DNA from: a virus
IMG/VR virus record: IMGVR_UViG_3300045988_065473
Span: 1-58,410 of that record
Direction: 5' to 3' (one strand)
DNA length: 58,410 bases
Below the pieces are notes generated by a model that ran no database searches, had not been told where the DNA came from, and saw only the letters and a program-made list of their open reading frames with translations. Shown in pieces: positions 5,541 through 46,093 of the stretch; within the stretch, counting starts at the first letter, position 1, and every line of letters starts with the position of its first letter. Position numbers and translations under genes: made by a program.

Positions 5541-6036
5541 TCATCCACTTTTTGTACACCTATCGGGCAAATTTACCTTGTCAATCCGTCCCCCATAAGC
5601 TGTAAATCGACAACATTCGCGCGGAATAAATAACGAATTATCGTCAATCTATTGCCTGTGATTGGTCGGCTTGTCAATCCGTCCCCCATAGCATTGGCTT
5701 AAAAGTTTTTCATCCACTTTTCGTACACGTTAGGCAAACCTAACCGTTAAGCGTTTCAACCTTTCGGATGTTAAACATCTGTTTATTTGGCGATATTTGC
5801 TTTGTGTTTTCCACTTTTTAAGAGAGAAAGAAAAGATTTTGTGGAAAATTTTCTTCTTCTGCTATTAGTAGAAGTTATTTTATAATCTTGTTAATAGTCT
5901 TGTTTTATATAATGTAAAGAGGTGTACAAAAAATGGATATAGGTGTACAGATTGTGGAAATAGGTGTACGAAATGTGGACAGTTAGGTGTACAAGAAGTG
6001 GAAATAGGTGTACACTTGCTATTGATTTGTACACCT
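5541..6036. repeat. Plasmid-type origin: 21-23-bp iterons (core AGGTGTACA...GTGGA) plus an AT-rich segment
   Basis: Direct copies start at 5920, 5941, 5962, 5985 and 6006. Inverted copies lie at 5541-5563, 5711-5733 and 6029-6036. A 21-bp repeat CTTGTCAATCCGTCCCCCATA occurs at 5577 and 5670. AT-rich stretch at about 5800-5919. Confidence 0.85.
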
Positions 6037-6076
6037 ATCTGTGATATACTCTTATACGAGAGGAGGCGTGATAAGA

Positions 6077-7162
6077 TTGTCTGATATTAAAGGCGGGAAC
6101 TTGGTTGAAAAAAGCAGACAGCTTGTTTGGGCAAAGTTCACTGATTATACAGCAGGAGAACTACGGTTACTTGAAGTGTATCTTAGCCGCATCAATCCGA
6201 GAGACCCTGAAACTTCAACGGTTCAGTTTACGTTACAAGAGTATTGCGAGTTTTTGGGGTTGAAAATCAACTCTAGGAATTTGAAAGCACAGGTCAAGCA
6301 TTTCATCGACAACTCTGTTGAAGTTCCTAGAGGTGACGGTTCAGGCTCGTTTGACCTGTATCCCCTGTTCAGTAGAGCAACTGTAAACTTTGAACCTAGT
6401 TTAATGAATATTACTGTGTCATTGTGTTGCAATCCGCTTCTGCAACCTGTTTTCTTCGACATTGCGGAGCGTGGATATGTCAAGTATCGCTTGCGCTACA
6501 CAGCGAATATGAAATCGCAGTATAGCATTTTGCTGTATTCAATTCTCCGAGAGTTCATCGGACGTGGCGTGAGCCAGCCCGAAATTACGTTGGATAGATT
6601 AAGGGAACAGCTTGGTGCAAGAGAACCTAGCTATCAAGAGTTCAAGCATCTTAGGCGGCGTGTCATTGATATTGCGGTAGCTGAAATAAACGAAGTATCA
6701 GACCTGTGCGTTGAATATGACAAGGTCATGAGAGGTCGCAATGCGGTTGCTGTGAAGTTCAATATAGCTTTCAAGTCTAATGAGCCAGTCATAGACGTGG
6801 AAGCTAACGAGGTTGAAAGCGTAGAGCTAAAAGATGTTCCAAAGAGCCAACGACCTGCCAGAAAGCCCCGCAGCGGCGCATACGAGGATGTGGATTGGGC
6901 ATCTATTGCGCCGGAGATGTCTAAAAGCCAGTGTATCTTGACTGCAAAGCTGGTGGCAAAGAGATTGCCGGAGAAGTATCCGAACATCAAGCCTAACAAG
7001 AAAAAGGAAGCTGTTGTAAACATCGTTGAGAACGCATACAGGATTCTTGTCAGTGAACGGCTTGATAAGATTGAAAAAGACCCCGGCGCTTATATGTACT
7101 CAATTTTGAAAGAAGCAGACCTTGACGATTATGCTACATTTGATGATAGCTTCTTGAAGTAG
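6077..7162 (+). CDS. repB: Rep_3/RepB-family plasmid replication initiator
   Basis: The Rep_3 pattern is visible along the whole length (LVEKSRQLVWAKF...ELRLLEVYLSRI...YSILLYSILREF...). TTG start 10 nt after GGAGG. Iterons lie directly upstream. Confidence 0.85.
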   Translation: MSDIKGGNLVEKSRQLVWAKFTDYTAGELRLLEVYLSRINPRDPETSTVQFTLQEYCEFLGLKINSRNLKAQVKHFIDNSVEVPRGDGSGSFDLYPLFSRATVNFEPSLMNITVSLCCNPLLQPVFFDIAERGYVKYRLRYTANMKSQYSILLYSILREFIGRGVSQPEITLDRLREQLGAREPSYQEFKHLRRRVIDIAVAEINEVSDLCVEYDKVMRGRNAVAVKFNIAFKSNEPVIDVEANEVESVELKDVPKSQRPARKPRSGAYEDVDWASIAPEMSKSQCILTAKLVAKRLPEKYPNIKPNKKKEAVVNIVENAYRILVSERLDKIEKDPGAYMYSILKEADLDDYATFDDSFLK

Positions 7163-7207
7163 TCAGATGTAGCACATTGAGCAGATGATGCAGAAAGGAG
7201 AAAGAGT

Positions 7208-7486
7208 ATGGTTCCAATGTTTCCGAAAGGCTATGACAAGGACAAGTGGTACATGACTAAAGATGTTATGCCGGATAAAAGCCTAGAAGGATGGCCGCGT
7301 GGGCTTTTACTTCGCATCGAAGATGAGAAAACAGGAGAAAAAATCATAGCCGGTGAGTACGATACAATCAGCGGCAAATGGTTTGATTCCGATAGTAATG
7401 AAATCAAAGGAACTGTAGTTGCATGGAACGTCACGCCCGTGTTGTGGGTCGGAGACGAGATAAAAGCAGCATATCCGTTCTACTAA
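7208..7486 (+). CDS. Hypothetical protein (weakly DUF551-like)
   Basis: Strong AAAGGAGAAAG RBS, 92 aa. Confidence 0.6.
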   Translation: MVPMFPKGYDKDKWYMTKDVMPDKSLEGWPRGLLLRIEDEKTGEKIIAGEYDTISGKWFDSDSNEIKGTVVAWNVTPVLWVGDEIKAAYPFY

Positions 7487-7503
7487 AAAGAAAGAGTGAT
7501 AAA

Positions 7504-8274
7504 ATGGCAAAAATCATAGCTGTCGCTAACCAGAAGGGCGGCACAGGAAAGACTACCACAAGCACCTGTCTGGCTGGTGCGTTGCAGTTGCTTGGCAAGA
7601 AAGTTTTACTGGTGGACTGCGATGCCCAGTGCAACGCAACGGACACCTACGGAGCACAGACAGAGGATGTATGCACCCTGTTTGATGTAATGACCCGGCA
7701 AGGCACGGTAGAGGAAGGAATCCAGAACTGTGAAGCTGGTGACATTCTGCCGTCCGACAGCGCATTGAAGGACATTGACGAGCAGCTTGTCAGGGACATG
7801 GGAAAGAACTTCCGGTTGAGAGAAGCCCTTGAAAGCGTATCTGGGCAGTACGATTATATTGTGCTGGACACTCCCCCGCAGTTGGGTTTGATGCTTGTAA
7901 ATGCGCTGATCGCATCGAACAGCGTCATTGTTCCAATGACCCCTGACCGCTACGCTGTGGCTGGTTTAAGCCAGCTTTCGCAGACAATCAATGATGTTAG
8001 GAGATACTTTAATCAAAATCTGAAAATCGAAGGGTTGCTGCTGAATAAGTTTGGGGGTCGGGAAATCCTTTCAAAAGAAGCAATCGAAGCACTACCAGAA
8101 GCCGCAAACCTTATGGGAACCAAAGTGCTTGACACAAAAATCCGAATGTCAATGGGGATTAGAAAGGCGCAATCAGAACGTCATGGTCTGTTTATTGGAA
8201 ATACGGCAAAATGCACTGGCGCAGAGGATTTCAAGGCGTTGGCGCAGATGATTGTAGAGGGGGAAGAAAAATGA
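7504..8274 (+). CDS. parA: ParA/Soj-type partition ATPase
   Basis: Deviant Walker A box: KIIAVANQKGGTGKTTT. Confidence 0.9.
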   Translation: MAKIIAVANQKGGTGKTTTSTCLAGALQLLGKKVLLVDCDAQCNATDTYGAQTEDVCTLFDVMTRQGTVEEGIQNCEAGDILPSDSALKDIDEQLVRDMGKNFRLREALESVSGQYDYIVLDTPPQLGLMLVNALIASNSVIVPMTPDRYAVAGLSQLSQTINDVRRYFNQNLKIEGLLLNKFGGREILSKEAIEALPEAANLMGTKVLDTKIRMSMGIRKAQSERHGLFIGNTAKCTGAEDFKALAQMIVEGEEK

Positions 8275-32655: not shown

Positions 32656-34164
32656 CTATTCGCCCTCTGTTTCTTTATTGATGCTGTCAGACTGTTCGTC
32701 CGATGTTTTGTTGGCTTCAACAACTTGTTCAGGCTGTTGTTCCTGCGGTTTCGGAGCTTTGCCGTCCTCGCCCAGCTTGCCAGCGGCAATCAGGAACGGC
32801 TTGCTCATTTCGTAAGCAGCCTGCGGGTCAGGGAACAGACCGGGCGTAGTGAATGCCAGCTGCGGGTCGATGGTCTGCTGCAACATTTGTACGAAAATCT
32901 GAACCTTGCTCTGCTGGTTGTCGTACTGGCGGCGGGGCAGTTTGATGTTGATGTCACTTGCCATCAGATTAGAACCAGCCGTATCACGCAGGATTTTCAG
33001 CATCACAGACAGGCTTTGGCGTTCCGAGAACTTGAACATATTCTCGTACTGCTGTGCCCTTGCTTCGGTGTGATTCCAGCCATTGCGGACGATGACCGCA
33101 CCCACGTTGTCGGATGTTGCGTTCTCACTACCAGTGGCACTAGGCATGGCAGTCAGACTACGGTACACGTTCAACATGGAATCAAGCAGGGTCTGGCTCT
33201 GCTGCTGGTCAAGTTCGTTTGCAATCTGAGAAACAGAAGCGGGCAGACCAGAAGTGGATTTCAAGCACATTGCGCCAAGCTCTTTTACTTGGTCAAGAGC
33301 ATCCTTGTCCACAAGACAGTTGGTAAACACCATGATGGACTGGATGAACTGCGCCACACCGTCCAAACGGTTGCTTTCAAGGTCGTTGATGGCATCCAGC
33401 ACAGGAATAGCCGGTTCAAACAGACCCATTCGCTCCGGGTTCAGCTTGTATTCAACCATCGGCAGCATTCCGAGAGAATGGTTCTCCGATTTCGTAACCT
33501 TGCCGTTGTCGATTTCAAAGTACTGGTTCGGCGTATATACGCAAATCAGGTCGTTCAGGTCATTCTGATAATTGCGTGGGATGTGCAGCACGTTGGCGAT
33601 GGGCTTGTGCCCGATGCCGGAGTTGTAAATCACATACGCCATGTCCGGGTCTGGAACATCCACCAGCAGGGGTGTTTCGTCCGGGTAGTTTCCGTTGTAC
33701 CCCTTGTCAGGAAGAACGATGCGGTATCCCTGTCCGCACTCCAACATCCACTGCCAGAGCCGCCGATCAAGCGCATCCTTGCCCTCATACTGCAAAGCAT
33801 TGGACAAACGGGCGATTTCCTCACCGTCACCAGTTGCCGTTTCAGACCGCACATAAGAGCAAGGAGTGCCGCTCATGTAACCTGTGTAGAAGCCCACGCA
33901 CTCATTGGCGTGGTTCTCTACAATGCGATTGGTGATTTCAGCGTGGTACTCCTTCGTGCGCTGGAGGACAGGCTGGCTACCCAAGTAGTAGTTGTGCAAA
34001 AAGCGAATCTCATTCTTGTTCAGCAGATGAATAGGCTCTGCCTTGCCAGTGACCACTTTCAGCACGTTCGTCTGATTGATTTCCGTCTCCGGCGTTTCAA
34101 TCGGTCTGCGTCCAGTCAGAGGCTCATTCAAAAAGCCGTCAACAACTATCTGATACTTAGCCAT
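32656..34164 (-). CDS. Portal protein
   Basis: 502 aa. Position and size fit an SPP1 gp6-like portal. Confidence 0.8.
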   Translation of the reverse strand: MAKYQIVVDGFLNEPLTGRRPIETPETEINQTNVLKVVTGKAEPIHLLNKNEIRFLHNYYLGSQPVLQRTKEYHAEITNRIVENHANECVGFYTGYMSGTPCSYVRSETATGDGEEIARLSNALQYEGKDALDRRLWQWMLECGQGYRIVLPDKGYNGNYPDETPLLVDVPDPDMAYVIYNSGIGHKPIANVLHIPRNYQNDLNDLICVYTPNQYFEIDNGKVTKSENHSLGMLPMVEYKLNPERMGLFEPAIPVLDAINDLESNRLDGVAQFIQSIMVFTNCLVDKDALDQVKELGAMCLKSTSGLPASVSQIANELDQQQSQTLLDSMLNVYRSLTAMPSATGSENATSDNVGAVIVRNGWNHTEARAQQYENMFKFSERQSLSVMLKILRDTAGSNLMASDINIKLPRRQYDNQQSKVQIFVQMLQQTIDPQLAFTTPGLFPDPQAAYEMSKPFLIAAGKLGEDGKAPKPQEQQPEQVVEANKTSDEQSDSINKETEGE

Positions 34165-34255
34165 GTTGTCCTCCTTTCCGGCAAAATAAAAAGCGCAGCA
34201 AGACAGACCTGTTAAGGTCTATCTCACTGCGCCAAAACTGCGCTTCAAAAGCTAT

Positions 34256-34438
34256 TTACTTTTCCGGTGGATGGATGATTTTCACCCATCCTTCCCTTGT
34301 GTCTCCTTCGATAACGCCCTTGCATCTGTCGCACTTGAAATGGTATCGTCCGTCCACTTCGCCAAGATATCGGTTGCAGCGGACATTCTTATAGATAGGG
34401 TTCTGCCGGATACAAGGGCAACAGATTCTAACTAGCAT
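34256..34438 (-). CDS. Small zinc-ribbon protein
   Basis: CCPC...C...CDRC motifs. AAAGGAG RBS. Confidence 0.6.
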   Translation of the reverse strand: MLVRICCPCIRQNPIYKNVRCNRYLGEVDGRYHFKCDRCKGVIEGDTREGWVKIIHPPEK

Positions 34439-34787
34439 GAGCGCTCCTTTCGCTGGATTTCTGGAAACAGGCTGTTAAGCACAGACCTGTCGGAAGCTAC
34501 CGGGAAACTGTTCGCGCTTCCGGTTACGCTAGTTAGTTGTCGGGACTAACAACGTAGTTTTCCCGCCTAAAAGAAAACCACAAATGGTCACAGATTTCGG
34601 ATTTGCACCAATGCCTACGTCTTTCGACGTGCAGCTGCCTGACCGCTGCAATCTGTGATAAACCCGGATTAATTGAAGCCGTTGCTCTTTGCAATGTGAA
34701 AAATCTAAAGACATTGCATCGAGAGCCGGGAATAACGGAAGAGGTAGTTTCAGGAGAATATCCCATGCAAAGCAAGAGAATCGTTGT

Positions 34788-34871
34788 GCTGCGTGGTGGG
34801 TTTGAACCACCGATTGCTGGCATTGTTAAGCATTGGGGGCACCAGCATTCTCATCCGGTAGAGAACGCAAC
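34788..34871 (-). ncRNA. tRNA-like RNA: canonical acceptor, D and T arms but a 21-nt anticodon loop
   Basis: Hand fold: GTTGCGT/ACGCAGC 7-bp acceptor (one G-U), U8, D loop with GG, GCTGG/CCAGC stem, GGTGG-TTCAAAC-CCACC T arm, discriminator A, no encoded CCA. Confidence 0.6.
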
Positions 34872-34875
34872 TCAT

Positions 34876-34910
34876 AGAAACCTGTGACGAAGAGCGACCG
34901 TCGCCACAGG
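34876..34910 (-). terminator. Hairpin plus U-tract just upstream of the tRNA-like gene
   Basis: The minus strand reads CCTGTG-(GCGAcggTCGC...)-CACAGG TTTCT. Confidence 0.5.
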
Positions 34911-35009
34911 AAAGAAAGGAGTGGTATTCACACAATGAAGGGCCGATGAGCAAAATGACAAAATCTCATCAGAAGAATACCTGACGGAAGTAGCAAGCTT
35001 CCTGCTTAT

Positions 35010-35039
35010 ATTGTAAAGCAAAATATAATCGAAAATCAA
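35010..35039 (-). promoter_or_regulatory. Sigma-70-like promoter downstream of terL
   Basis: The minus strand reads TTGATT, 18 nt, TACAAT. Confidence 0.45.
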
Positions 35040-35077: not shown

Positions 35078-36745
35078 TCAAAAAGGCCTCTTGACAGGCT
35101 CGATTTTGATGATTCCGTTATACAGCTCATCGGCAAGCTGCGCCAAACTGTCCGGTGCATCATCGTGCGGAACCTTTCCAAGCTGCGTGAACATCGTGAC
35201 CTGTTCCATGAACGCCTTGTACTCTTTCGACTGGTGTTTTTCGTCAAGGAAATAGAACCGTTTGATGTCTGGCGCATACTGGATGATTCTTGACAGCTTG
35301 CTTTGACCGCTTGGCGCACGCTGGCTACGAACAGAGCAATGATAGCCTTGCTGCCGAAGCTGGCTGTCCACCACGTCACAGTATTCGTCACCGCCGTTGT
35401 TAGCTTCGCCGCGCACCACATTGATTTTGTGCTGGATGATTTTGCCCACGACTTCCGGTCTGGTCACGGTCTTATCGCCATTGTTGAACACAAGGTCAGG
35501 GATGAATACGGCATCTCCGTACACATAGGCGATAGGGCAGGCGGTGAAGTCACCACCACCCCATGCAATATCCATGACCATGAGCTTGCGATCAGGCTCG
35601 CCGTCAGGCAGAACGCCGTTGAAATACCGCAGTTCATCGGCAGGGAATAGCAGGCCTTCACGCACATAGGGCTTACCCATGTACTTTGCCCACCATGTTG
35701 CATCGTCAATGCTGGCTTTCATATCGGCATAGTAGGCATCGTCAAATCCAACGCCATAGTCATAATTGAAGTTGCTGTGTCCGTTTTCGTCCACCGCAGG
35801 AATCACCCGGAATCGGTACTTCGGGTTGTCTGCATACTGGTTCTGGATGCGTCCCAGAGGGTCAAGCACGTTCCATCGGGTGCCGACCATCAGCTCTAAT
35901 GCGCCTTGCTTTTTACGGTCTTTCAGCTGGTTCAAATAGGCATCGTACTTGTTGTTCAGGCGCTCAACATTCAGGCTTTCCTCCAAGTCCTCGATCAAGT
36001 CATCGCTGTACAGAACGCCGCCCTCGCCAATTTCAACAGCACCAGTCAACGTACCGCCGATGGAACGACAGGTCAGGGTGGGGAAACGCTTCTTTCGGTT
36101 CAGATCAACGCTTTCGTCCTTTGCGCTTTTGTCCACAAGCTGAACGTCAGGGAAGATTTTGCCCCAGTTGTAGGTCACGGGGTCGGTGATGATGGACAGC
36201 ACTTCGCCGTAGAAGCCGTTGGTCAGCTTGTCAGAATGTCCGCTCATAACCGATGCAACGTCAGGGCGGTTACCCATCAGCCATGTGATGAAAAATATAC
36301 AAAGAGTTGATTTTCCAGTTCTCGGAGCCATCGAGATTCCCAAGAAATCTACACGATGGAAAAACAAGTCCTCAAGGTCATTGACAAGCGTGTGCAAAAT
36401 GCGCCTGCGCGGCTGATAGAACTTCTTCTCCGGCGCACGATTCCATTCAAGGTAGATGCAATAGCTGTCGAACACATCCTTTGCTTCAAGCAGGTACGTC
36501 CGGCCGATAATGTCATAGACCTTCGCCACGTCCTCGCCTGTTTTCATCTTGCCCATCATGGATGCACAGACGGAACGCAGCTCACCAGAGTATTTGTAGG
36601 CATCGAACCGCTTGTCTTGCGGCAGAGCATCTCTCAGGTTCACCACCGCCTGAAACCAGTCCTCATAGACCTGCGCTTCGGTCGGATTCTGCTTTGCATA
36701 CGCTTTAATACTGTCGATGATGGCGATACACTGTTTTGGCTGCAT
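35078..36745 (-). CDS. terL: Terminase large subunit
   Basis: Walker A-like SMAPRTGKST, DDLIED acidic motif and a C-terminal nuclease-like half. Confidence 0.85.
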   Translation of the reverse strand: MQPKQCIAIIDSIKAYAKQNPTEAQVYEDWFQAVVNLRDALPQDKRFDAYKYSGELRSVCASMMGKMKTGEDVAKVYDIIGRTYLLEAKDVFDSYCIYLEWNRAPEKKFYQPRRRILHTLVNDLEDLFFHRVDFLGISMAPRTGKSTLCIFFITWLMGNRPDVASVMSGHSDKLTNGFYGEVLSIITDPVTYNWGKIFPDVQLVDKSAKDESVDLNRKKRFPTLTCRSIGGTLTGAVEIGEGGVLYSDDLIEDLEESLNVERLNNKYDAYLNQLKDRKKQGALELMVGTRWNVLDPLGRIQNQYADNPKYRFRVIPAVDENGHSNFNYDYGVGFDDAYYADMKASIDDATWWAKYMGKPYVREGLLFPADELRYFNGVLPDGEPDRKLMVMDIAWGGGDFTACPIAYVYGDAVFIPDLVFNNGDKTVTRPEVVGKIIQHKINVVRGEANNGGDEYCDVVDSQLRQQGYHCSVRSQRAPSGQSKLSRIIQYAPDIKRFYFLDEKHQSKEYKAFMEQVTMFTQLGKVPHDDAPDSLAQLADELYNGIIKIEPVKRPF

Positions 36746-36816
36746 AAAAAAATAGGCACCCCCTACCTGAAAATGTAAAGAGTGCCTACAACTGCACAAA
36801 AATCAAATATTCGGTT

Positions 36817-38031
36817 TTATTCTCCAGCTTTGAAATTGTAAATGGGCTTAATATGCTTTACAATATCAACGGTTGGAGAGATTGCGTTGATAATTTCCTG
36901 CGCTGGCTTATATGCCATCGGACATTCATCCAACGTGGATTCATCAGCTGAGGTGGTATAAATGTCGTTCATCTGCTTTTGGTATTCCTCAACGCTAAAC
37001 GCCTTTTTAGCCGCTGTTCTGCTATATAGTCTGCCAGCACCATGCGGAGCAGAGAAATTCCAATCAGGATTGCCCTTACCAACGCAGATAAGACTTCCGT
37101 CTCTCATATTAAGAGGAATAATCAGCTTCTCACCCTCTCTAGCGGATACAGAGCCTTTTCGGATAATATCATCCGATTCATCAATATAGTTATGAACAGT
37201 TTCAAAGAAGGACGCATGGGTCAGCATAGAATTGATTCCAACACCATCTAAAATGGTGTGCATAATTCTTGCTCTGTTCATCCTCGCAAAAGCCTGACAA
37301 ATTCGCATATCATTAAGGTAGGAATCACGTTCTTCGCCTTCAAGATAGCAAAGCTCATTTGGAATATCAGGGAACTGAACATCCAATTCTTTGATTTTTT
37401 GCGAGATTTCTTGTTCACGACCCTGCGCTTTCAGTTCCGCAATCAGACGTTCTGTGGCGTCTTTTCTTTTATTCTTTCCTTTAAGATTTGAAATGGCTAC
37501 GCTTTGATGGTACTCGGCAACCTGCTTTCCGAGATTTCGGCTTCCAGTATGGATAACAAGATACTGGTTCCCCTCTTCGTCCTCGTCCAACTCAATAAAA
37601 TGATTGCCACCGCCCAAAGTACCCATGCTGCGAAGAATCCAGTCAACATTGTGCAAGCTGTCCTTGCAGTCAAGCTGGCTAAGGAAAGAATCCGACATTT
37701 TCTGCGATTCGTGAACATTCATTCCAGCCGGAACTCGTTCTCTGATTACTTTATCTAACTTTTTCGGGTCGATGTGTTCAATTCCAAGTTCAGCGACAAG
37801 CATTCCGCAACCAATGTCCACGCCTACAATATTCGGAATGACTTTCTTGCCCAAGTTTGCAGTAAACCCAATTACGCACCCGGAACCAGCATGAACATCT
37901 GGCATAATGCGAATTTTGCATCCGTCAACAAAGCTCTGATTACAGAGCGTCAGAATTTGCTCAGATGCCTTGTCTTCGATATTGTCTGTGAACACCTTTG
38001 CGGACGCATATTTTCCGTCAATCGTTTTCAA
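36817..38031 (-). CDS. rtcB: RtcB-family 3'-phosphate/5'-OH RNA ligase
   Basis: Motifs MPDVHAG, GVDIGCGM, GGGNHFIE, HTGSRNLG, HNYI and SAPHGAGR are all present. Confidence 0.9.
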   Translation of the reverse strand: MKTIDGKYASAKVFTDNIEDKASEQILTLCNQSFVDGCKIRIMPDVHAGSGCVIGFTANLGKKVIPNIVGVDIGCGMLVAELGIEHIDPKKLDKVIRERVPAGMNVHESQKMSDSFLSQLDCKDSLHNVDWILRSMGTLGGGNHFIELDEDEEGNQYLVIHTGSRNLGKQVAEYHQSVAISNLKGKNKRKDATERLIAELKAQGREQEISQKIKELDVQFPDIPNELCYLEGEERDSYLNDMRICQAFARMNRARIMHTILDGVGINSMLTHASFFETVHNYIDESDDIIRKGSVSAREGEKLIIPLNMRDGSLICVGKGNPDWNFSAPHGAGRLYSRTAAKKAFSVEEYQKQMNDIYTTSADESTLDECPMAYKPAQEIINAISPTVDIVKHIKPIYNFKAGE

Positions 38032-38096
38032 TGAGTTCTCCTTTCCAATTCGGTTTTATAATGCTGTTTTAGAAATTTTCTTTATTGACCTGATTT

Positions 38097-38294
38097 TCAA
38101 ACTCCTTCCGCTGCTTTGATGGCTGCACGAACCAATTTATATACGCAAAACTCTCTGTTTTCCCAAGTGGACTTTCGGCATTCTTCTGCACACTGAATAA
38201 TGTCCAAAAGGCTTCCTCCGTTCATCATTTGAGTCAAAACACGAATGTCTTCTTCGCTCCACCACTCTGGAACTTTCACCACTTTATTGTCCAT
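38097..38294 (-). CDS. Hypothetical protein
   Basis: 65-aa ORF. Confidence 0.5.
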   Translation of the reverse strand: MDNKVVKVPEWWSEEDIRVLTQMMNGGSLLDIIQCAEECRKSTWENREFCVYKLVRAAIKAAEGV

Positions 38295-38314
38295 AAGCTG
38301 CTCCTAATAAAAAA

Positions 38315-38503
38315 TCAATAACCTTCAAGATATTTGTCATCCGGAGCTGAATTGTCCTCTTCACAATGAACCGGAACAAAAAAATCATCCCATTCTACGT
38401 TCTCGTCACGAGCATCATATTGTGCGAAAGTTTCTGCGTCAAGCAAACTATCTGCTTCAACATAAATATAACCGATTCTATGCACTTCAACACGGCATTT
38501 CAT
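38315..38503 (-). CDS. Hypothetical protein
   Basis: 62-aa acidic ORF. Confidence 0.5.
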   Translation of the reverse strand: MKCRVEVHRIGYIYVEADSLLDAETFAQYDARDENVEWDDFFVPVHCEEDNSAPDDKYLEGY

Positions 38504-38704
38504 AATGTTCTCCTTCAGATAAATCTTGCTACCATATTCTTATTTAACTTCTTTTGCAAGCTGATTCAATCTGCGCTTAAACTCGTCCGCATCGTAGTAC
38601 AAGGCGTCTGCGATGGCATTGAGAATATCGGGCTTGTCGGTGTAATCGCACAATGTTTCAATCAGTTTCAAGCTCTGATCTGACAATTTTACGGGTTTCA
38701 TGCT

Positions 38705-39010
38705 TTATTCCTTTCTCTGACTATATAAAGTAGGTTTTGGTTGTTCATCTCCTAGTATCAGCTTATAGCGGAGATACTTTTCGATAATACTGTGTCTTTC
38801 TGCCAGTGTACCGTAAATAAAGACGAGAGCATCTTTAGCAGCATCGTATTCATTCGGGAAAATGACAATTTCCTCGTTTGCAAAGGTAACGGTGCAGTTT
38901 TCCGAATGACAGGCTTCCAAGAACTGCTTGATTTCAAGGAAACCGCCAAAGTCAAGCATAGACCGTAGCGTGATGCTTCCGTTCTTAACAATCAGTTCTT
39001 CTCCCTGCAT
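38705..39010 (-). CDS. Hypothetical protein
   Basis: Start taken at the ATG just after the recombinase stop. Confidence 0.5.
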   Translation of the reverse strand: MQGEELIVKNGSITLRSMLDFGGFLEIKQFLEACHSENCTVTFANEEIVIFPNEYDAAKDALVFIYGTLAERHSIIEKYLRYKLILGDEQPKPTLYSQRKE

Positions 39011-45056: not shown

Positions 45057-46093
45057 ATAGTCGTAGCGTTCCGGTTGGAATAGTCGTAGCCAATAGTCGT
45101 AGTTTCTCCGTTAAAATAGTCGTGGAATAGTCGTAAAGTCGTCAGACGACTATCTTTTGAAAGTCCTATATATCGTATATTAACGAATGGTTCGCCGATA
45201 GTCGCAGAGTGATAGTCGTAGCATTTTCTTGCGAACCATTGTCAAATAGTCGTGTATTTTTTGTGTAAAATAGTTGTTCGCCTTTTAGAGAAAGAGAGGA
45301 GCGATAGTCGCTAAGCCATCCAACCACTCCAAAAATCACCTCTCGTTTCAATTTCGTATAATTTATTCTTCCGCTAGTTATACCTATTTCGTATAATAAC
45401 CGTACTTATTATAGTATACAGATATAGTTACTCACGATAATCACTGATTATTTCGTATAATAACTCGTACCATCCGATTCGGTCTGTTCCTGCTCGATTT
45501 AATTCCCAGTAATATACTATGGTATCACAATCAATCCATAGCATTCTACTAGGAATAATCAATGCAACATTTCTACATATTCAACCGACTACAAAATGAA
45601 GCCAATTCTCCATGTGAAATAGTCGTAGACTATCCAACAGTCCGAACCTCACGCCAACTCTCGCCTGCGGTCTGCTCTGCTGGCTAACGGTGTAGTTCTG
45701 GAGATAGAGGGTTGTAGGGGGAAAGAACCTTTGCAAAGCATTTGGTTGTCATTTTTAGTTGTTGCAGTTGTCGCACCATTTTGGCGTGGGGGCCTCAAAC
45801 AATTTATTTGTTTGAGGGGGGAGTTAGGGGGATTATAGGGGGTAATAGGGGTTGTAGGGGAAAGAGGGGGAAGAAAGGGGGGAAGATTTGTATTCCATGA
45901 TACCAACGCATACCATTCGTATCAACTGGTACGATTCGTATCGCTTGGTATGCAATAATCGCATCCATTTCGTCTCATGCACTCTGCTTTCGTCTAATTC
46001 TCCCGTCGATCGAGGCGGATTCTACTCAAAATCAGACCTTGCCGTTTTCTCTCGATAAATAACAGAAGAAAAAAGCATGGAATAGTCGCAGAG
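45057..46093. repeat. Second origin-like region: at least 13 copies of ATAGTCG(T/C), 3x ATTTCGTATAAT, and TTCGT(A/C)T repeats
   Basis: ATAGTCGT at 45057, 45080, 45093, 45116, 45127, 45212, 45246 and 45619. Variants at 45198, 45270, 45304 and 46082. Inverted copy at 45146. ATTTCGTATAAT at 45351, 45386 and 45450. Confidence 0.8.
45816..45882 (+). repeat. Seven G4-G6 tracts at 10-11-bp spacing ((T)AGGGGG repeats)
   Basis: G runs at 45816, 45827, 45838, 45848, 45857, 45866 and 45877. A 10-bp-stem hairpin at 45792-45816 precedes the array. Confidence 0.8.

What the first reader, a model, noticed from the sequence alone, without database searches (positions are those of the whole stretch)
34788..34871. 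tRNA-like gene with canonical acceptor, D and T arms but a 21-nt anticodon loop
On the minus strand the 84 nt fold by hand as GTTGCGT-TC-TCTACCGGATGAGA-AT-GCTGG-[TGCCCCCAATGCTTAACAATG]-CCAGC-AATC-GGTGG-TTCAAAC-CCACC-ACGCAGC-A.
- The acceptor stem is 7 bp. Its single G-U pair would be a C-A mismatch on the other strand, which argues for a minus-strand RNA.
- U8, a GG-containing D loop, a textbook T arm (G53-C61, TTCAAAC loop) and a 4-nt variable loop are all present.
- The 5-bp anticodon stem closes 21 nt instead of 7.
- No split of those 21 nt gives a legal Y32-U33-NNN-R37 loop, so this is not a simple short intron.

It lies in an ORF-free structured gap and about 2 kb from a phage-encoded RtcB, the ligase that seals cleaved tRNA anticodon loops and tRNA exon halves. 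Possible roles are a decoy or substrate for host anticodon nucleases, an RtcB-dependent processed RNA, or a YrlA/T4 species-1/2-like stable RNA. I do not recognise this architecture.
Basis: partly seen in the sequence, partly recalled or inferred. Interest (0 to 1): 0.85.

Follow-up and report, generated by a model that had tools for sequence, protein, structure and literature searches.

The report
Non-decoding tRNA look-alike in gut phage
An abundant human-gut phage carries a conserved tRNA-shaped RNA gene that cannot read codons, because its anticodon arm has been replaced by a longer hairpin with a run of Cs; it is a real, uncatalogued tRNA mimic, but it is not tied to the neighbouring RtcB ligase and its role is still unknown.

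Summary
The fold is real. Window 34871..34787 (minus strand, 85 nt) is the minimum-energy cloverleaf. The same element occurs in over 190 IMG/VR copies of a ~57-kb gut phage-plasmid, as six sequence types. Their D, "anticodon" and T stems keep pairing through compensatory changes (95.8% of cells paired, against 33-46% when the pairing is slid). G-U pairs place the RNA on the minus strand.

It is not a decoding tRNA. ARAGORN and Rfam miss it, although Rfam scores the true tRNA 130 nt downstream in a relative at 53.5 bits. The D stem starts at nt 8, so there is no free U8/N9. The anticodon-like arm has an 11-22-nt loop. The 21-nt loop is peculiar to the rare window allele.

Two features are frozen: the acceptor stem plus A73-CAA, and a C-run (CUCCCCC) in the loop.

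The element sits in a promoter-to-terminator RNA operon between terL and portal, together with a covarying hairpin and a second tRNA site.

RtcB is accessory, present in 17 of 80 relatives. The YrlA, tmRNA, intron and att-remnant readings fail.

Best reading: a tRNA paralogue turned into a tRNA mimic, matured by tRNA-processing enzymes. Its effector mechanism (decoy, C-rich seed, or processing handle) is unresolved.

The parts
34787..34871 (-). tRNA-like RNA gene (element 1), 85 nt: acceptor 7 bp, D arm, extended anticodon-like arm, 4-nt variable region, T arm, discriminator A
   Evidence: Minimum-energy cloverleaf. Covariance model R1 scores it at 72.5 bits and it is the only strong hit in the window. 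Covariation in 79 homologues.
34865..34871 (-). Acceptor 5' strand GUUGCGU. It pairs with 34794..34788 (ACGCAGC). The sequence is frozen across all alleles.
   Evidence: 82 of 83 gaps are exact. The 3' strand plus A plus CAA is present in 54 of 54 loci anchored without reference to it. 106 of 120 loci are exact in a spacer-anchored scan, and the rest differ by a single nucleotide.
34849..34864 (-). D arm: a 4-bp stem UCUC/GAGA that starts at nt 8, with the 8-nt loop UACCGGAU containing GG
   Evidence: Pairs 8-24, 9-23 and 10-22 (alignment columns) covary: UA/CG, UG/CG/UA and CG/UA.
34816..34846 (-). Anticodon-like arm: stem GCUGG/CCAGC (7 bp in the minimum-energy fold) closing the 21-nt loop UGCCCCCAAUGCUUAACAAUG
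   Evidence: The stem covaries among alleles: GCCAG/CTGGC, GTCAG/CTGGC, CCAGGA/TCCTGG, TCTGG/CCAGA, GCAAG/CTTGC.
34835..34839 (-). C-run (CCCCC) inside the big loop. It is CUCCCCC in types A, B, C and F, and CGCCC in type D.
   Evidence: It is conserved while the surrounding stem and loop sequences have all changed.
34795..34811 (-). T arm GGUGG-UUCAAAC-CCACC with a canonical T54-Psi55-C56-R57-A58 pattern and G53-C61
   Evidence: Stem variants are AACGG/CCGTT, AGCGG/CCGCT, GGCGG/CCGTC and GGTGG/CCACC, with the loop TTCRAnn kept.
35010..35039 (-). Sigma-70-like promoter TTGATT-18-TACAAT just after the terL stop codon
   Evidence: Consensus scan. Conserved as TTGATT-18-TATAAT in relatives.
34872..35003 (-). 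Structured 5' leader: hairpins at 35002..34986 and 34910..34881, and the CU-rich motif ACUCCUUUCUUUCC at 34924..34909
   Evidence: The hairpins are kept with compensatory changes in the 22-representative alignment. The motif reads UUCCUCCUUUC in type A genomes.
34663..34730 (-). Conserved spacer hairpin between the two tRNA sites: outer stem CCCGG/CCGGG, inner stem, and a conserved 3' internal loop
   Evidence: 17 predicted pairs, 5 with compensatory changes, e.g. CCCGG/CCGGG to CCTGG/CCAGG.
34585..34657 (-). Site-2 tRNA-like RNA: acceptor CACAGAU/AUCUGUG, then A and CCA; 6-bp D stem; anticodon arm replaced by CGUC-GAAA-GACG; T loop UGCAAAU
   Evidence: Read from the sequence. Not called by ARAGORN. 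The same site holds tRNA-CAU in 76 gaps, tRNA-Ile(UAU) in 2, and this variant in 6.
34256..34438 (-). 60-aa Cys-rich (zinc-ribbon-like) ORF with its own Shine-Dalgarno site; the last gene of the small operon
   Evidence: ORF list. Conserved in relatives with synonymous-type variation. No Pfam or PHROG family.
34192..34233 (-). Intrinsic terminator: 19-bp stem followed by a T-run, in front of the portal gene
   Evidence: Invariant in the three-way alignment.
36817..38031 (-). RtcB RNA ligase gene. It is a neighbour, not an obligate partner.
   Evidence: Pfam PF01139, 1.9e-63. PHROG 1075. Present in only 17 of 80 relatives.

Best explanation
**What it is.** It is a non-decoding paralogue of the phage's own tRNA(CAU): a tRNA mimic.

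**How it is made (inferred).**
- It is transcribed from a dedicated promoter just after terL. The ~0.8-kb RNA operon runs leader, tRNA-like RNA, covarying hairpin, second tRNA site, small ORF, terminator.
- It keeps a 7-bp acceptor stem, a canonical T arm and, in most alleles, a GG-containing D loop. It is therefore expected to fold into an L shape.
- It would then be cut out by RNase P at the 5' side and RNase Z at the 3' side. No CCA is encoded, so CCA would be added afterwards.

**How it would work (inferred).**
- Its anticodon arm has been rebuilt into a longer hairpin whose loop carries a conserved C-run. It cannot read a codon, and aminoacyl-tRNA synthetases that depend on the anticodon should not charge it.
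- The acceptor stem, A73 and the trailer are frozen in sequence, while every other stem covaries and the neighbouring true tRNA's acceptor evolves freely.
- I therefore infer that it acts in trans as a mimic. A tRNA-binding factor reads its acceptor/T-arm half. The C-run arm either blocks the reaction that factor normally performs on the anticodon loop (decoy) or tethers a G-rich partner.

**Shown versus inferred.** Shown: the gene, the strand, the structure, the conservation pattern, the operon context and the independence from RtcB. Inferred: expression, processing and the mimic or decoy action.
For: - The cloverleaf is the minimum-energy fold.
- There are 78 distinct homologues in six types, with 95.8% of cells paired and 9 covarying pairs. 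All three internal helices covary.
- G-U pairs fix the strand.
- The T loop is TTCRAnn with G53-C61, and GG is present in the D loop of five of the six types.
- The acceptor is frozen: 82 of 83, 54 of 54 and 106 of 120 exact in three samples, with only single-base variants otherwise. Site-2 tRNA acceptors, in contrast, vary with compensation: GTTGCAT, GCTACAT, GTTACAT, CACAGAG.
- Element 1's acceptor GUUGCGU/ACGCAGC-A matches the commonest site-2 tRNA(CAU) acceptor GUUGCAU/AUGCAGC-A. The match includes the U2-G71 wobble and A73, which points to paralogy.
- The CUCCCCC motif is retained in four types whose arm stems and loop flanks are otherwise unrelated.
- A conserved promoter and terminator bracket the module.
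- A second tRNA body without an anticodon loop sits at site 2 in the same genomes.
- Precedent for a non-translating pseudo-tRNA with a cellular role: tRNAOther of Bacillus cereus (PMC3399842).
Against: - No transcript data are available.
- No partner has been identified.
- The most abundant allele (type A) lacks GG in its D loop, and its unconstrained minimum-energy fold is not the cloverleaf.
- The D stem abuts the acceptor with no 8-9 linker, so the L shape is not guaranteed.
- The window loop has no target in the phage genome better than shuffled loops find.
- The frozen acceptor could reflect something other than protein recognition.
- The host is unknown, so no host tRNA or nuclease could be compared. 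The genome-contig scan gave only chance hits.
Confidence: 0.4

Rival explanations
1. A tRNA-scaffolded base-pairing sRNA. The tRNA body only provides processing and stability. The C-rich loop is the seed that pairs with G-rich, Shine-Dalgarno-type sequences of host mRNAs, as the C-rich regions of RsaE and RoxS do in Firmicutes.
For: - The C-run (CUCCCCC) is the only conserved feature of the arm.
- It sits in a loop.
- C-rich loops that target Shine-Dalgarno regions are an established sRNA mode in Firmicutes (PMC6158497, PMC5419742).
- Other CU-rich, anti-SD-like motifs lie in the leader and the spacer of the same transcript.
- Some phage genes use GGGGGUGA as their Shine-Dalgarno site.
Against: - It does not explain the frozen acceptor stem.
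- No phage target stands out: the best duplex is -26 kcal/mol, inside the shuffled range of -25 to -32.
- The window and type D alleles lack the CUCC core.
- Motif enrichment is weak in the window itself.
- There is no Rfam RsaE hit.
Confidence: 0.2
2. A purely cis-acting processing handle ('tRNA punctuation'). The two tRNA-shaped elements recruit RNase P and RNase Z to cut the operon transcript. This releases the leader, the conserved spacer hairpin RNA and the small-ORF mRNA. The tRNA-like RNA itself would be a by-product.
For: - Two tRNA bodies flank a covarying, sequence-conserved hairpin.
- At site 2 the anticodon arm can be replaced by a minimal GAAA-tetraloop hairpin. That is expected if only the acceptor/T-arm/elbow half matters.
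- The anticodon-like arm of element 1 varies in length and sequence.
- Analogy, from my own knowledge: mascRNA at the MALAT1 3' end, MHV68 TMERs, and mitochondrial tRNA punctuation.
Against: - RNase P and RNase Z do not need a particular acceptor sequence or a C-run, yet both are conserved.
- Element 1 is retained in every genome, even though a true tRNA 130 nt downstream could serve the same purpose.
Confidence: 0.2
3. It is one domain of a larger multi-domain 'ornate' RNA of ~450-700 nt that functions as a whole. GOLLD and ROOL are phage-borne and associated with tRNA genes in a comparable way.
For: - The whole 0.7-kb stretch from promoter to small ORF is non-coding.
- It is full of hairpins that covary and has conserved single-stranded motifs.
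- From my own knowledge, large phage ncRNAs next to or containing tRNAs are known.
Against: - There is no hit to GOLLD, ROOL or any other Rfam family.
- The module is mosaic: element 1 types, spacer types and site-2 alleles reassort freely. That fits independent units better than one folded whole.
- A true tRNA sits inside it in most genomes.
Confidence: 0.1
4. An RtcB-dependent RNA: a tRNA whose oversize loop is an intron or a cleavage substrate that the phage RtcB reseals.
For: RtcB lies 1.95 kb upstream on the same strand.
Against: - RtcB is present in only 17 of 80 relatives, and its presence is uncorrelated with the allele.
- No excision of the loop gives a legal anticodon loop in the window allele.
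- Loop length ranges from 11 to 22 nt with no bulge-helix-bulge motif evident on inspection.
- No endonuclease gene was found.
Confidence: 0.03
5. A decaying tRNA pseudogene or an attP remnant with no function.
For: It is derived from a tRNA and tRNA finders miss it.
Against: - All four helices are maintained through compensatory changes across six alleles that are only about two-thirds identical.
- Both halves of the tRNA are present.
- It is found in over 190 copies of an otherwise 97-99% identical phage.
- The phage has plasmid-type maintenance genes, Rep3 and ParA.
Confidence: 0.02

Closest known systems
Pseudo-tRNA 'tRNAOther' of Bacillus cereus (PMC3399842)
   Same: A tRNA-derived gene on a mobile or accessory region of a Firmicute. 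It does not function in translation, yet its deletion has a cellular phenotype. It is the best precedent for 'tRNA body, non-decoding role'.
   Different: tRNAOther is chromosomal, keeps a normal-size anticodon arm, and flanks a genomic island. No sequence similarity was tested here. The present RNA has an extended arm with a C-run and a frozen acceptor.
Stable RNAs 'species 1 and 2' of the phage T4 tRNA gene cluster (from my own knowledge, not checked with tools)
   Same: Small, stable, non-decoding RNAs encoded among phage tRNA genes. They are co-transcribed and matured with the tRNAs, and their function is unknown.
   Different: They are longer (~120-140 nt) and are not a complete four-arm cloverleaf. 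They come from an unrelated phage and host. Homology was not tested.
Bacterial Y RNA YrlA (PMC4201824)
   Same: A tRNA-like domain with T and D arms. It is a substrate of tRNA-modifying enzymes and RNase P, it occurs in phages, and RtcB often lies in the neighbourhood.
   Different: YrlA is defined by adjacency to Ro60/Rsr and by a Ro-binding stem formed by the RNA ends. Its acceptor-like stem is a closed hairpin, with the T arm preceding the D arm. Here the ends form the acceptor, the D arm precedes the T arm, no Ro60 gene was found, and there is no Rfam hit.
C-rich-loop sRNAs of Firmicutes: RsaE/RoxS (PMC6158497, PMC5419742)
   Same: A conserved C-run displayed in a hairpin loop. The mode of action would be pairing with G-rich Shine-Dalgarno regions.
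   Different: Those sRNAs have no tRNA body and carry several C-rich regions. No homology and no target were found here.
tRNA-like processing modules (mascRNA of MALAT1, MHV68 TMERs; from my own knowledge) and the engineered 'tRNA scaffold' for RNA expression (PMC3753655)
   Same: A tRNA body in which the anticodon arm is dispensable or replaced by a payload. RNase P and RNase Z define the ends.
   Different: These are eukaryotic, viral-eukaryotic or synthetic systems. In them the acceptor sequence is not constrained.

Membership tests
Canonical (decoding) tRNA | 7-nt anticodon loop with U33 on a 5-bp stem | tested here: not met
   The loop is 19-21 nt in the window and 11-22 nt in other alleles. 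No split of the window loop gives Y32-U33-NNN-R37.
Canonical (decoding) tRNA | Recognised by tRNA detectors or covariance models | tested here: not met
   ARAGORN gives 0 genes. The Rfam tRNA model gives no hit even at E<=10 in a 316-nt search. The same model scores the neighbouring true tRNA in a relative at 53.5 bits but misses element 1 there.
Canonical (decoding) tRNA | Single-stranded U8/N9 linker between the acceptor and D stems | tested here: not met
   Nt 8 and 9 are paired, and their pairs covary.
Canonical (decoding) tRNA | 7-bp acceptor stem, 5-bp T stem, T-loop TTCRAnn, G53-C61 | tested here: met
YrlA / bacterial Y RNA | Encoded next to a Ro60 (Rsr, TROVE) gene | tested here: not met
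   No TROVE domain in the ~50 window ORFs scanned against Pfam. Not every ORF was scanned. Definition taken from PMC4201824.
YrlA / bacterial Y RNA | Ends form the Ro-binding stem; the acceptor-like stem is a closed hairpin between the T and D arms | tested here: not met
   Here the ends form the acceptor stem and the order is D arm, big arm, T arm.
YrlA / bacterial Y RNA | Match to Rfam Y RNA / YrlA models | tested here: not met
   No hit.
tmRNA | tRNA-like domain plus a tag reading frame; detected by ARAGORN or Rfam | tested here: not met
   ARAGORN finds none. The only signal is an 11.7-bit partial T-arm match to cyano_tmRNA in a relative, E = 0.85.
Intron-containing tRNA (group I, or bulge-helix-bulge with RtcB) | Removal of an insert restores a legal anticodon loop; splicing machinery is co-conserved | tested here: not met
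   No legal loop can be restored in the window allele. The insert sizes (4-15 nt) are far too small for a group I intron. RtcB is present in only 17 of 80 relatives.
attP / tRNA 3'-fragment remnant | Only the 3' part of a host tRNA is present, identical to the host gene | tested here: not met
   The complete cloverleaf is present, with covariation in all internal helices. Identity to the host could not be tested because the host is unknown.
C-rich-region sRNAs (RsaE/RoxS type) | Unpaired C-rich motif that pairs with Shine-Dalgarno regions of defined targets | tested here: inconclusive
   The C-run in a loop is present and conserved. No phage target scores above the shuffled control. Host targets cannot be tested.
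T4 species 1/2-type stable RNAs | Stable non-tRNA product of a phage tRNA-cluster transcript | not testable with these tools
   This needs RNA data. The context is compatible: it shares a promoter with a tRNA.

The most novel reading that the evidence does not exclude
A phage-made 'frozen-acceptor' tRNA decoy.
- The RNA imitates the body and acceptor identity of a particular tRNA(CAU)-type substrate.
- In this way it captures a host tRNA-directed enzyme, such as an anticodon or acceptor nuclease of an immune system, or a modification or charging enzyme.
- Its rebuilt C-run arm cannot be processed.
- This would explain why the decoy's acceptor is immobile while the phage's working tRNA next door keeps changing its acceptor and anticodon-arm sequence.
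- The anticodon-less tRNA at site 2 would be a second product of the same arms race.
Probability: 0.2. Interest if true: 0.8.

Novelty: new variant of a known kind. Interest (0 to 1): 0.55.

Why it matters
Phage tRNAs are currently discussed mainly as codon-supply or as replacements for tRNAs destroyed by host defence nucleases. A tRNA body that has given up decoding shows that phages also evolve tRNA mimics. This one is maintained by selection in one of the most abundant human-gut phage-plasmids: one TerL cluster alone holds over 3,400 member sequences.

The contrast between a frozen acceptor stem plus C-run and freely covarying other stems gives two precise, mutable handles for experiments.

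Practical points:
- The family is invisible to ARAGORN and Rfam, so such genes are currently unannotated.
- It is a caution against reading function from proximity, because the RtcB next door is a variable cargo gene.

Tried and rejected
1. **Standard detectors.** Rfam at gathering and at E-value thresholds on the window, on a 1.6-kb and a 316-nt sub-window, and on a type A relative gave nothing for the element. ARAGORN gave nothing.
2. **Genome-contig scan.** The pattern GTTGCGT-N50-80-ACGCAGCA was too loose for 596 Gb. All 120 rows were chance hits and none had a T loop.
3. **PLSDB.** A search with 10 kb around the locus found no match.
4. **More distant relatives.**
   - The TerL protein search listed only homologues of at least 96% identity.
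   - The nearest named phage (Clostridium phage Maintenon, TerL 52% identical) and MT836094 (51%) have no RNA module between terL and portal, and model R1 finds nothing there.
5. **Loop against G-run iterons.** I tested complementarity of the loop to the G-run iterons at 45.7-45.9 kb. The iterons are the same in genomes with different loops, so there is no co-variation. Rejected as numerology.
6. **Loop against the whole phage genome.** An RNAduplex scan found nothing better than shuffled loops do.
7. **Pairing partner for the frozen 3' strand.** A search for GTTGTGCTGCGT found only chance-level matches.
8. **Alternative pairing of the C-run.** RNAalifold proposed pairing of the C-run with the G-rich 3' strand of the D stem. 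Types B and E lack the complementarity, so I rejected it.
9. **Coding potential.** The overlapping ORFs are not conserved.
10. **Literature.** Searches found no description of this RNA. Fremin et al. 2023 (PMC10690425) list highly expressed gut-phage candidate RNAs of 81, 86 and 64 nt that might include it. No sequences or supplements are held, so this is unverified.
Full report
**1. The observation**

On the minus strand, window 34871..34787 reads GTTGCGT-TCTC-TACCGGAT-GAGA-AT-GCTGG-[TGCCCCCAATGCTTAACAATG]-CCAGC-AATC-GGTGG-TTCAAAC-CCACC-ACGCAGC-A.
- ViennaRNA gives the same cloverleaf as both the minimum-energy and the centroid structure: -27.9 kcal/mol, z = -2.55, and 3 of 200 shuffles fold as well.
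- ARAGORN finds no tRNA or tmRNA anywhere in the window.
- Rfam finds nothing at gathering thresholds. It finds nothing relevant at E<=10, either on 1.6 kb or on 316 nt.
- The stated end (34788) is one base short of the discriminator A.

**2. Context**

All genes here are on the minus strand.
- RtcB lies at 38031..36817 (Pfam 1.9e-63, PHROG 1075).
- The large terminase ends at 35078. Homologues are 555 aa, so its real start is probably the ATG at 36742.
- A ~0.9-kb gap follows, then an SPP1-type portal at 34164..32656 and a capsid gene.
- Inside the gap, in order:
  - a sigma-70-like promoter at 35039..35010;
  - a hairpin-rich leader;
  - the tRNA-like element;
  - a conserved hairpin at 34730..34663;
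  - a second tRNA-shaped element at 34657..34585;
  - a 60-aa Cys-rich ORF at 34438..34256;
  - a strong terminator at 34233..34192.
- The genome also has Rep3 and ParA genes, an AntA-type antirepressor, a DnaB helicase and a GH25 lysozyme. It therefore looks like a ~58-kb phage-plasmid of a Gram-positive gut bacterium.
- The nearest named phage is Clostridium phage Maintenon, which infects [Clostridium] innocuum. Its TerL is 52% identical.

**3. It is a conserved structured RNA**

- Two unannotated faecal phage fragments already showed compensatory changes in the T and anticodon-like stems.
- A pattern scan of IMG/VR and 80 TerL-anchored loci (TerL 97-99% identical) gave 194 copies and 78 distinct sequences.
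- The sequences fall into six types, here called A to F, and each folds into the four-arm structure.
- On the 79-sequence alignment:
  - the hand-specified cloverleaf has 95.8% of cells paired, against 33-46% when the 3' partners are slid;
  - nine pairs have changes on both sides;
  - 0 of 500 shuffles reach the observed covariation score;
  - the D, anticodon-like and T helices all covary.
- G-U pairs place the RNA on the minus strand: U2-G71 in all sequences, U9-G23 in 55, and several others.
- No ORF over the element is conserved.
- A covariance model built from the family finds a single copy in the window (72.5 bits). It finds nothing in the two nearest outgroup phages, whose terL and portal genes are adjacent.
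- The module is therefore an insertion specific to this very abundant phage group.

**4. How it departs from a tRNA**

- The D stem starts at nt 8 (TCTC/GAGA, TTCC/GGGA, TTTC/GAAA, TCCC/GGGA, CCC/GGG). There is no free U8/N9, and a 2-nt linker follows the D stem instead.
- The T arm is textbook.
- GG is present in the D loop of five types but not of the commonest, type A.
- The anticodon-like arm is the variable module.
  - Its stems are unrelated in sequence between types.
  - Loops are 11 nt (C/F), 12 nt (B), 16 nt (A), 21 nt (window type E) and 22 nt (D).
  - In types A, C and F, extra pairs could leave CUCCCCC as a 7-nt loop on a stem of about 9-10 bp.
- The window allele is rare, 4 of 77 typed relatives.
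- Its loop contains the direct repeat CAATG..CAATG. Removing 10 nt would give an 11-nt loop like that of types C/F, so the '21-nt loop' is probably a secondary insertion. This is my inference.
- In a type A relative, the Rfam tRNA model scores the bona fide tRNA 130 nt downstream at 53.5 bits but does not report element 1. This serves as a positive control for the negative result.

**5. What is under selection**

Two things are frozen.
- The first is the acceptor stem GUUGCGU/ACGCAGC, together with the discriminator A and the trailer CAA.
  - It is exact in 82 of 83 gaps.
  - It is present in 54 of 54 loci anchored without reference to it.
  - It is exact in 106 of 120 loci from a scan anchored on the T loop and the downstream hairpin.
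  - The 14 exceptions there are single-base changes, such as G4-U69, U7 to G, and A73 to G.
- The second is a C-run in the big loop. CUCCCCC is kept in types A, B, C and F although everything around it differs. The window has GCCCCC and type D has CGCCC.

By contrast, the true tRNA at site 2 changes its acceptor with compensation: GTTGCAT, GCTACAT, GTTACAT, CACAGAG.

Element 1's acceptor equals that of the commonest site-2 tRNA(CAU) at six of seven pairs. The match includes the U2-G71 wobble and A73, and the seventh pair is a compensated A-U to G-C change. Element 1 is therefore most simply a paralogue of that tRNA.

**6. The neighbours**

- Site 2 holds tRNA(CAU) in 76 gaps and tRNA-Ile(UAU) in 2.
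- In 6 gaps, including the window, it holds a tRNA body whose anticodon arm is replaced by CGUC-GAAA-GACG and which ends in ACCA.
- This locus has therefore produced a non-decoding tRNA body twice.
- The spacer hairpin covaries: 5 of 17 pairs have double changes.
- Element types, spacer types and site-2 alleles reassort.

**7. RtcB**

- Only 17 of the 80 TerL-anchored relatives carry RtcB upstream of terL. Its presence is independent of the element type or the site-2 allele.
- In RtcB-less genomes, ~0.36 kb replaces the 1.9-kb segment that contains RtcB.
- RtcB is thus cargo in a variable slot, and an obligate functional link is not supported. A role for a host RtcB cannot be excluded.

**8. 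Mechanism**

- Shown: the gene, the strand, the structure, the selection pattern, the operon context, the independence from RtcB, and the inability to decode.
- Inferred: transcription from the conserved promoter; 5' cleavage by RNase P and 3' cleavage by RNase Z, followed by CCA addition (there is a 7-bp acceptor, a canonical T arm and no encoded CCA); and no charging by anticodon-dependent synthetases.
- The frozen acceptor next to a freely evolving sister tRNA argues that a sequence-reading tRNA-binding factor is engaged. The C-run argues for a second contact at the far end of the molecule.
- I therefore favour a trans-acting tRNA mimic, either a decoy or an adaptor, at confidence 0.4.
- Rivals:
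  - a tRNA-scaffolded C-rich sRNA of the RsaE/RoxS type (0.2). No phage target scores above control, and it does not explain the acceptor;
  - a pure RNase P/Z processing handle for the neighbouring RNAs (0.2). The anticodon-less site-2 variant supports it, but it does not explain the frozen acceptor and the C-run;
  - a domain of a larger ornate RNA (0.1);
  - an RtcB-spliced tRNA (0.03);
  - a pseudogene or att remnant (0.02).

**9. Comparison with known families**

- It fails the defining tests for a decoding tRNA, YrlA (definition from PMC4201824), tmRNA, an intron-bearing tRNA and an att remnant.
- It works most like a pseudo-tRNA (tRNAOther of B. cereus, PMC3399842) or like the stable non-tRNA species of the T4 tRNA cluster. 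The T4 comparison is from memory.
- No Rfam family and no paper in the searchable library describes it.
- A 2023 catalogue of IMG/VR candidate RNAs (PMC10690425) mentions highly expressed gut-phage motifs of 81, 86 and 64 nt. Type A of this element is 81 nt and its spacer hairpin is ~66 nt. Identity cannot be checked here.

**10. Verdict**

This is a real, strongly conserved and currently unannotated tRNA mimic. It is a new variant of the known kind 'tRNA-like non-coding RNA'. The eye-catching 21-nt loop and the RtcB neighbour are incidental. The frozen acceptor, the C-run and the tRNA-rich RNA operon are the features worth following. Interest 0.55.

Noticed in passing
window 34585-34657 (minus strand): A second tRNA-shaped RNA with no anticodon loop. 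It has acceptor CACAGAU/AUCUGUG followed by A and CCA, a 6-bp D stem directly after the acceptor, a CGUC-GAAA-GACG hairpin in place of the anticodon arm, and T loop UGCAAAU. In most relatives the same site holds a normal tRNA(CAU). It looks derived from the CACAGAG-type allele.
   Followed up: partly
L051 and L111, site 2 (about 130 nt downstream of element 1): Two relatives carry tRNA-Ile(UAU) where close homologues carry CAU. This suggests the site-2 'tRNA-Met' genes may really be AUA-decoding tRNA-Ile2.
   Followed up: no
window 34663-34730 (minus strand): A conserved hairpin between the two tRNA sites, with a sequence-conserved 3' internal loop (AGCARCGG..CAAUYAAG). 5 of its 17 pairs show compensatory changes. 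If RNase Z and RNase P cut at the flanking tRNA bodies, it would be released as its own small RNA.
   Followed up: partly
window 34909-34924 (minus strand); equivalent leader position in type A relatives: A CU-rich motif in the leader. It is ACUCCUUUCUUUCC in the window and UUCCUCCUUUC in type A. The type A form contains the 9-mer CCUCCUUUC, which I recall, without checking, as typical of the Firmicute 16S rRNA 3' end. It is complementary to the Shine-Dalgarno sites of the small ORF and the portal gene. Further CCUCC or CUCC motifs lie in the spacer. Enrichment is modest, 2-8 fold on small counts.
   Followed up: partly
window 45700-45890 (plus strand): A non-coding array of G-run iterons with ~11-bp spacing (TAGGGGGAttaTAGGGGGtaaTAGGGG...), next to the DnaB helicase gene. 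It is probably a replication origin and is conserved in relatives that have different element-1 loops.
   Followed up: partly
window ~5575-5700 (minus strand): Two copies of TATGGGGGACGGATTGACAAG, 93 bp apart, upstream of the Rep3 initiator gene (6041-7162). They are candidate Rep iterons.
   Followed up: no
window 6041-8274: Rep3-family initiator and ParA ATPase genes, so the ~58-kb phage is likely maintained as a plasmid prophage. No match in PLSDB.
   Followed up: partly
window 36817-38705: The RtcB gene and the small ORFs beside it occupy a variable cargo slot upstream of terL. In most relatives ~0.36 kb of other sequence replaces this 1.9 kb.
   Followed up: yes
window 36742-36799: The listed terL ORF starts at a TTG at 36799. 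Homologues are 555 aa, and an ATG at 36742 follows a G-rich Shine-Dalgarno-like AGGGGGUG, so the real start is probably 36742.
   Followed up: partly
window 34256-34438 (minus strand): A 60-aa Cys-rich (CxxC...CxxC) ORF co-transcribed with the RNAs, with no Pfam or PHROG family. A small ORF occupies the same terL-portal position in phage Maintenon, which lacks the RNA module. Homology was not tested.
   Followed up: no
L323 (Clostridium phage Maintenon) 3795-4274: In the nearest named relative the tRNA genes (Trp-CCA, Gln-TTG, and a Met-CAT called only by ARAGORN) lie upstream of terL, in the slot that holds RtcB in the window.
   Followed up: no
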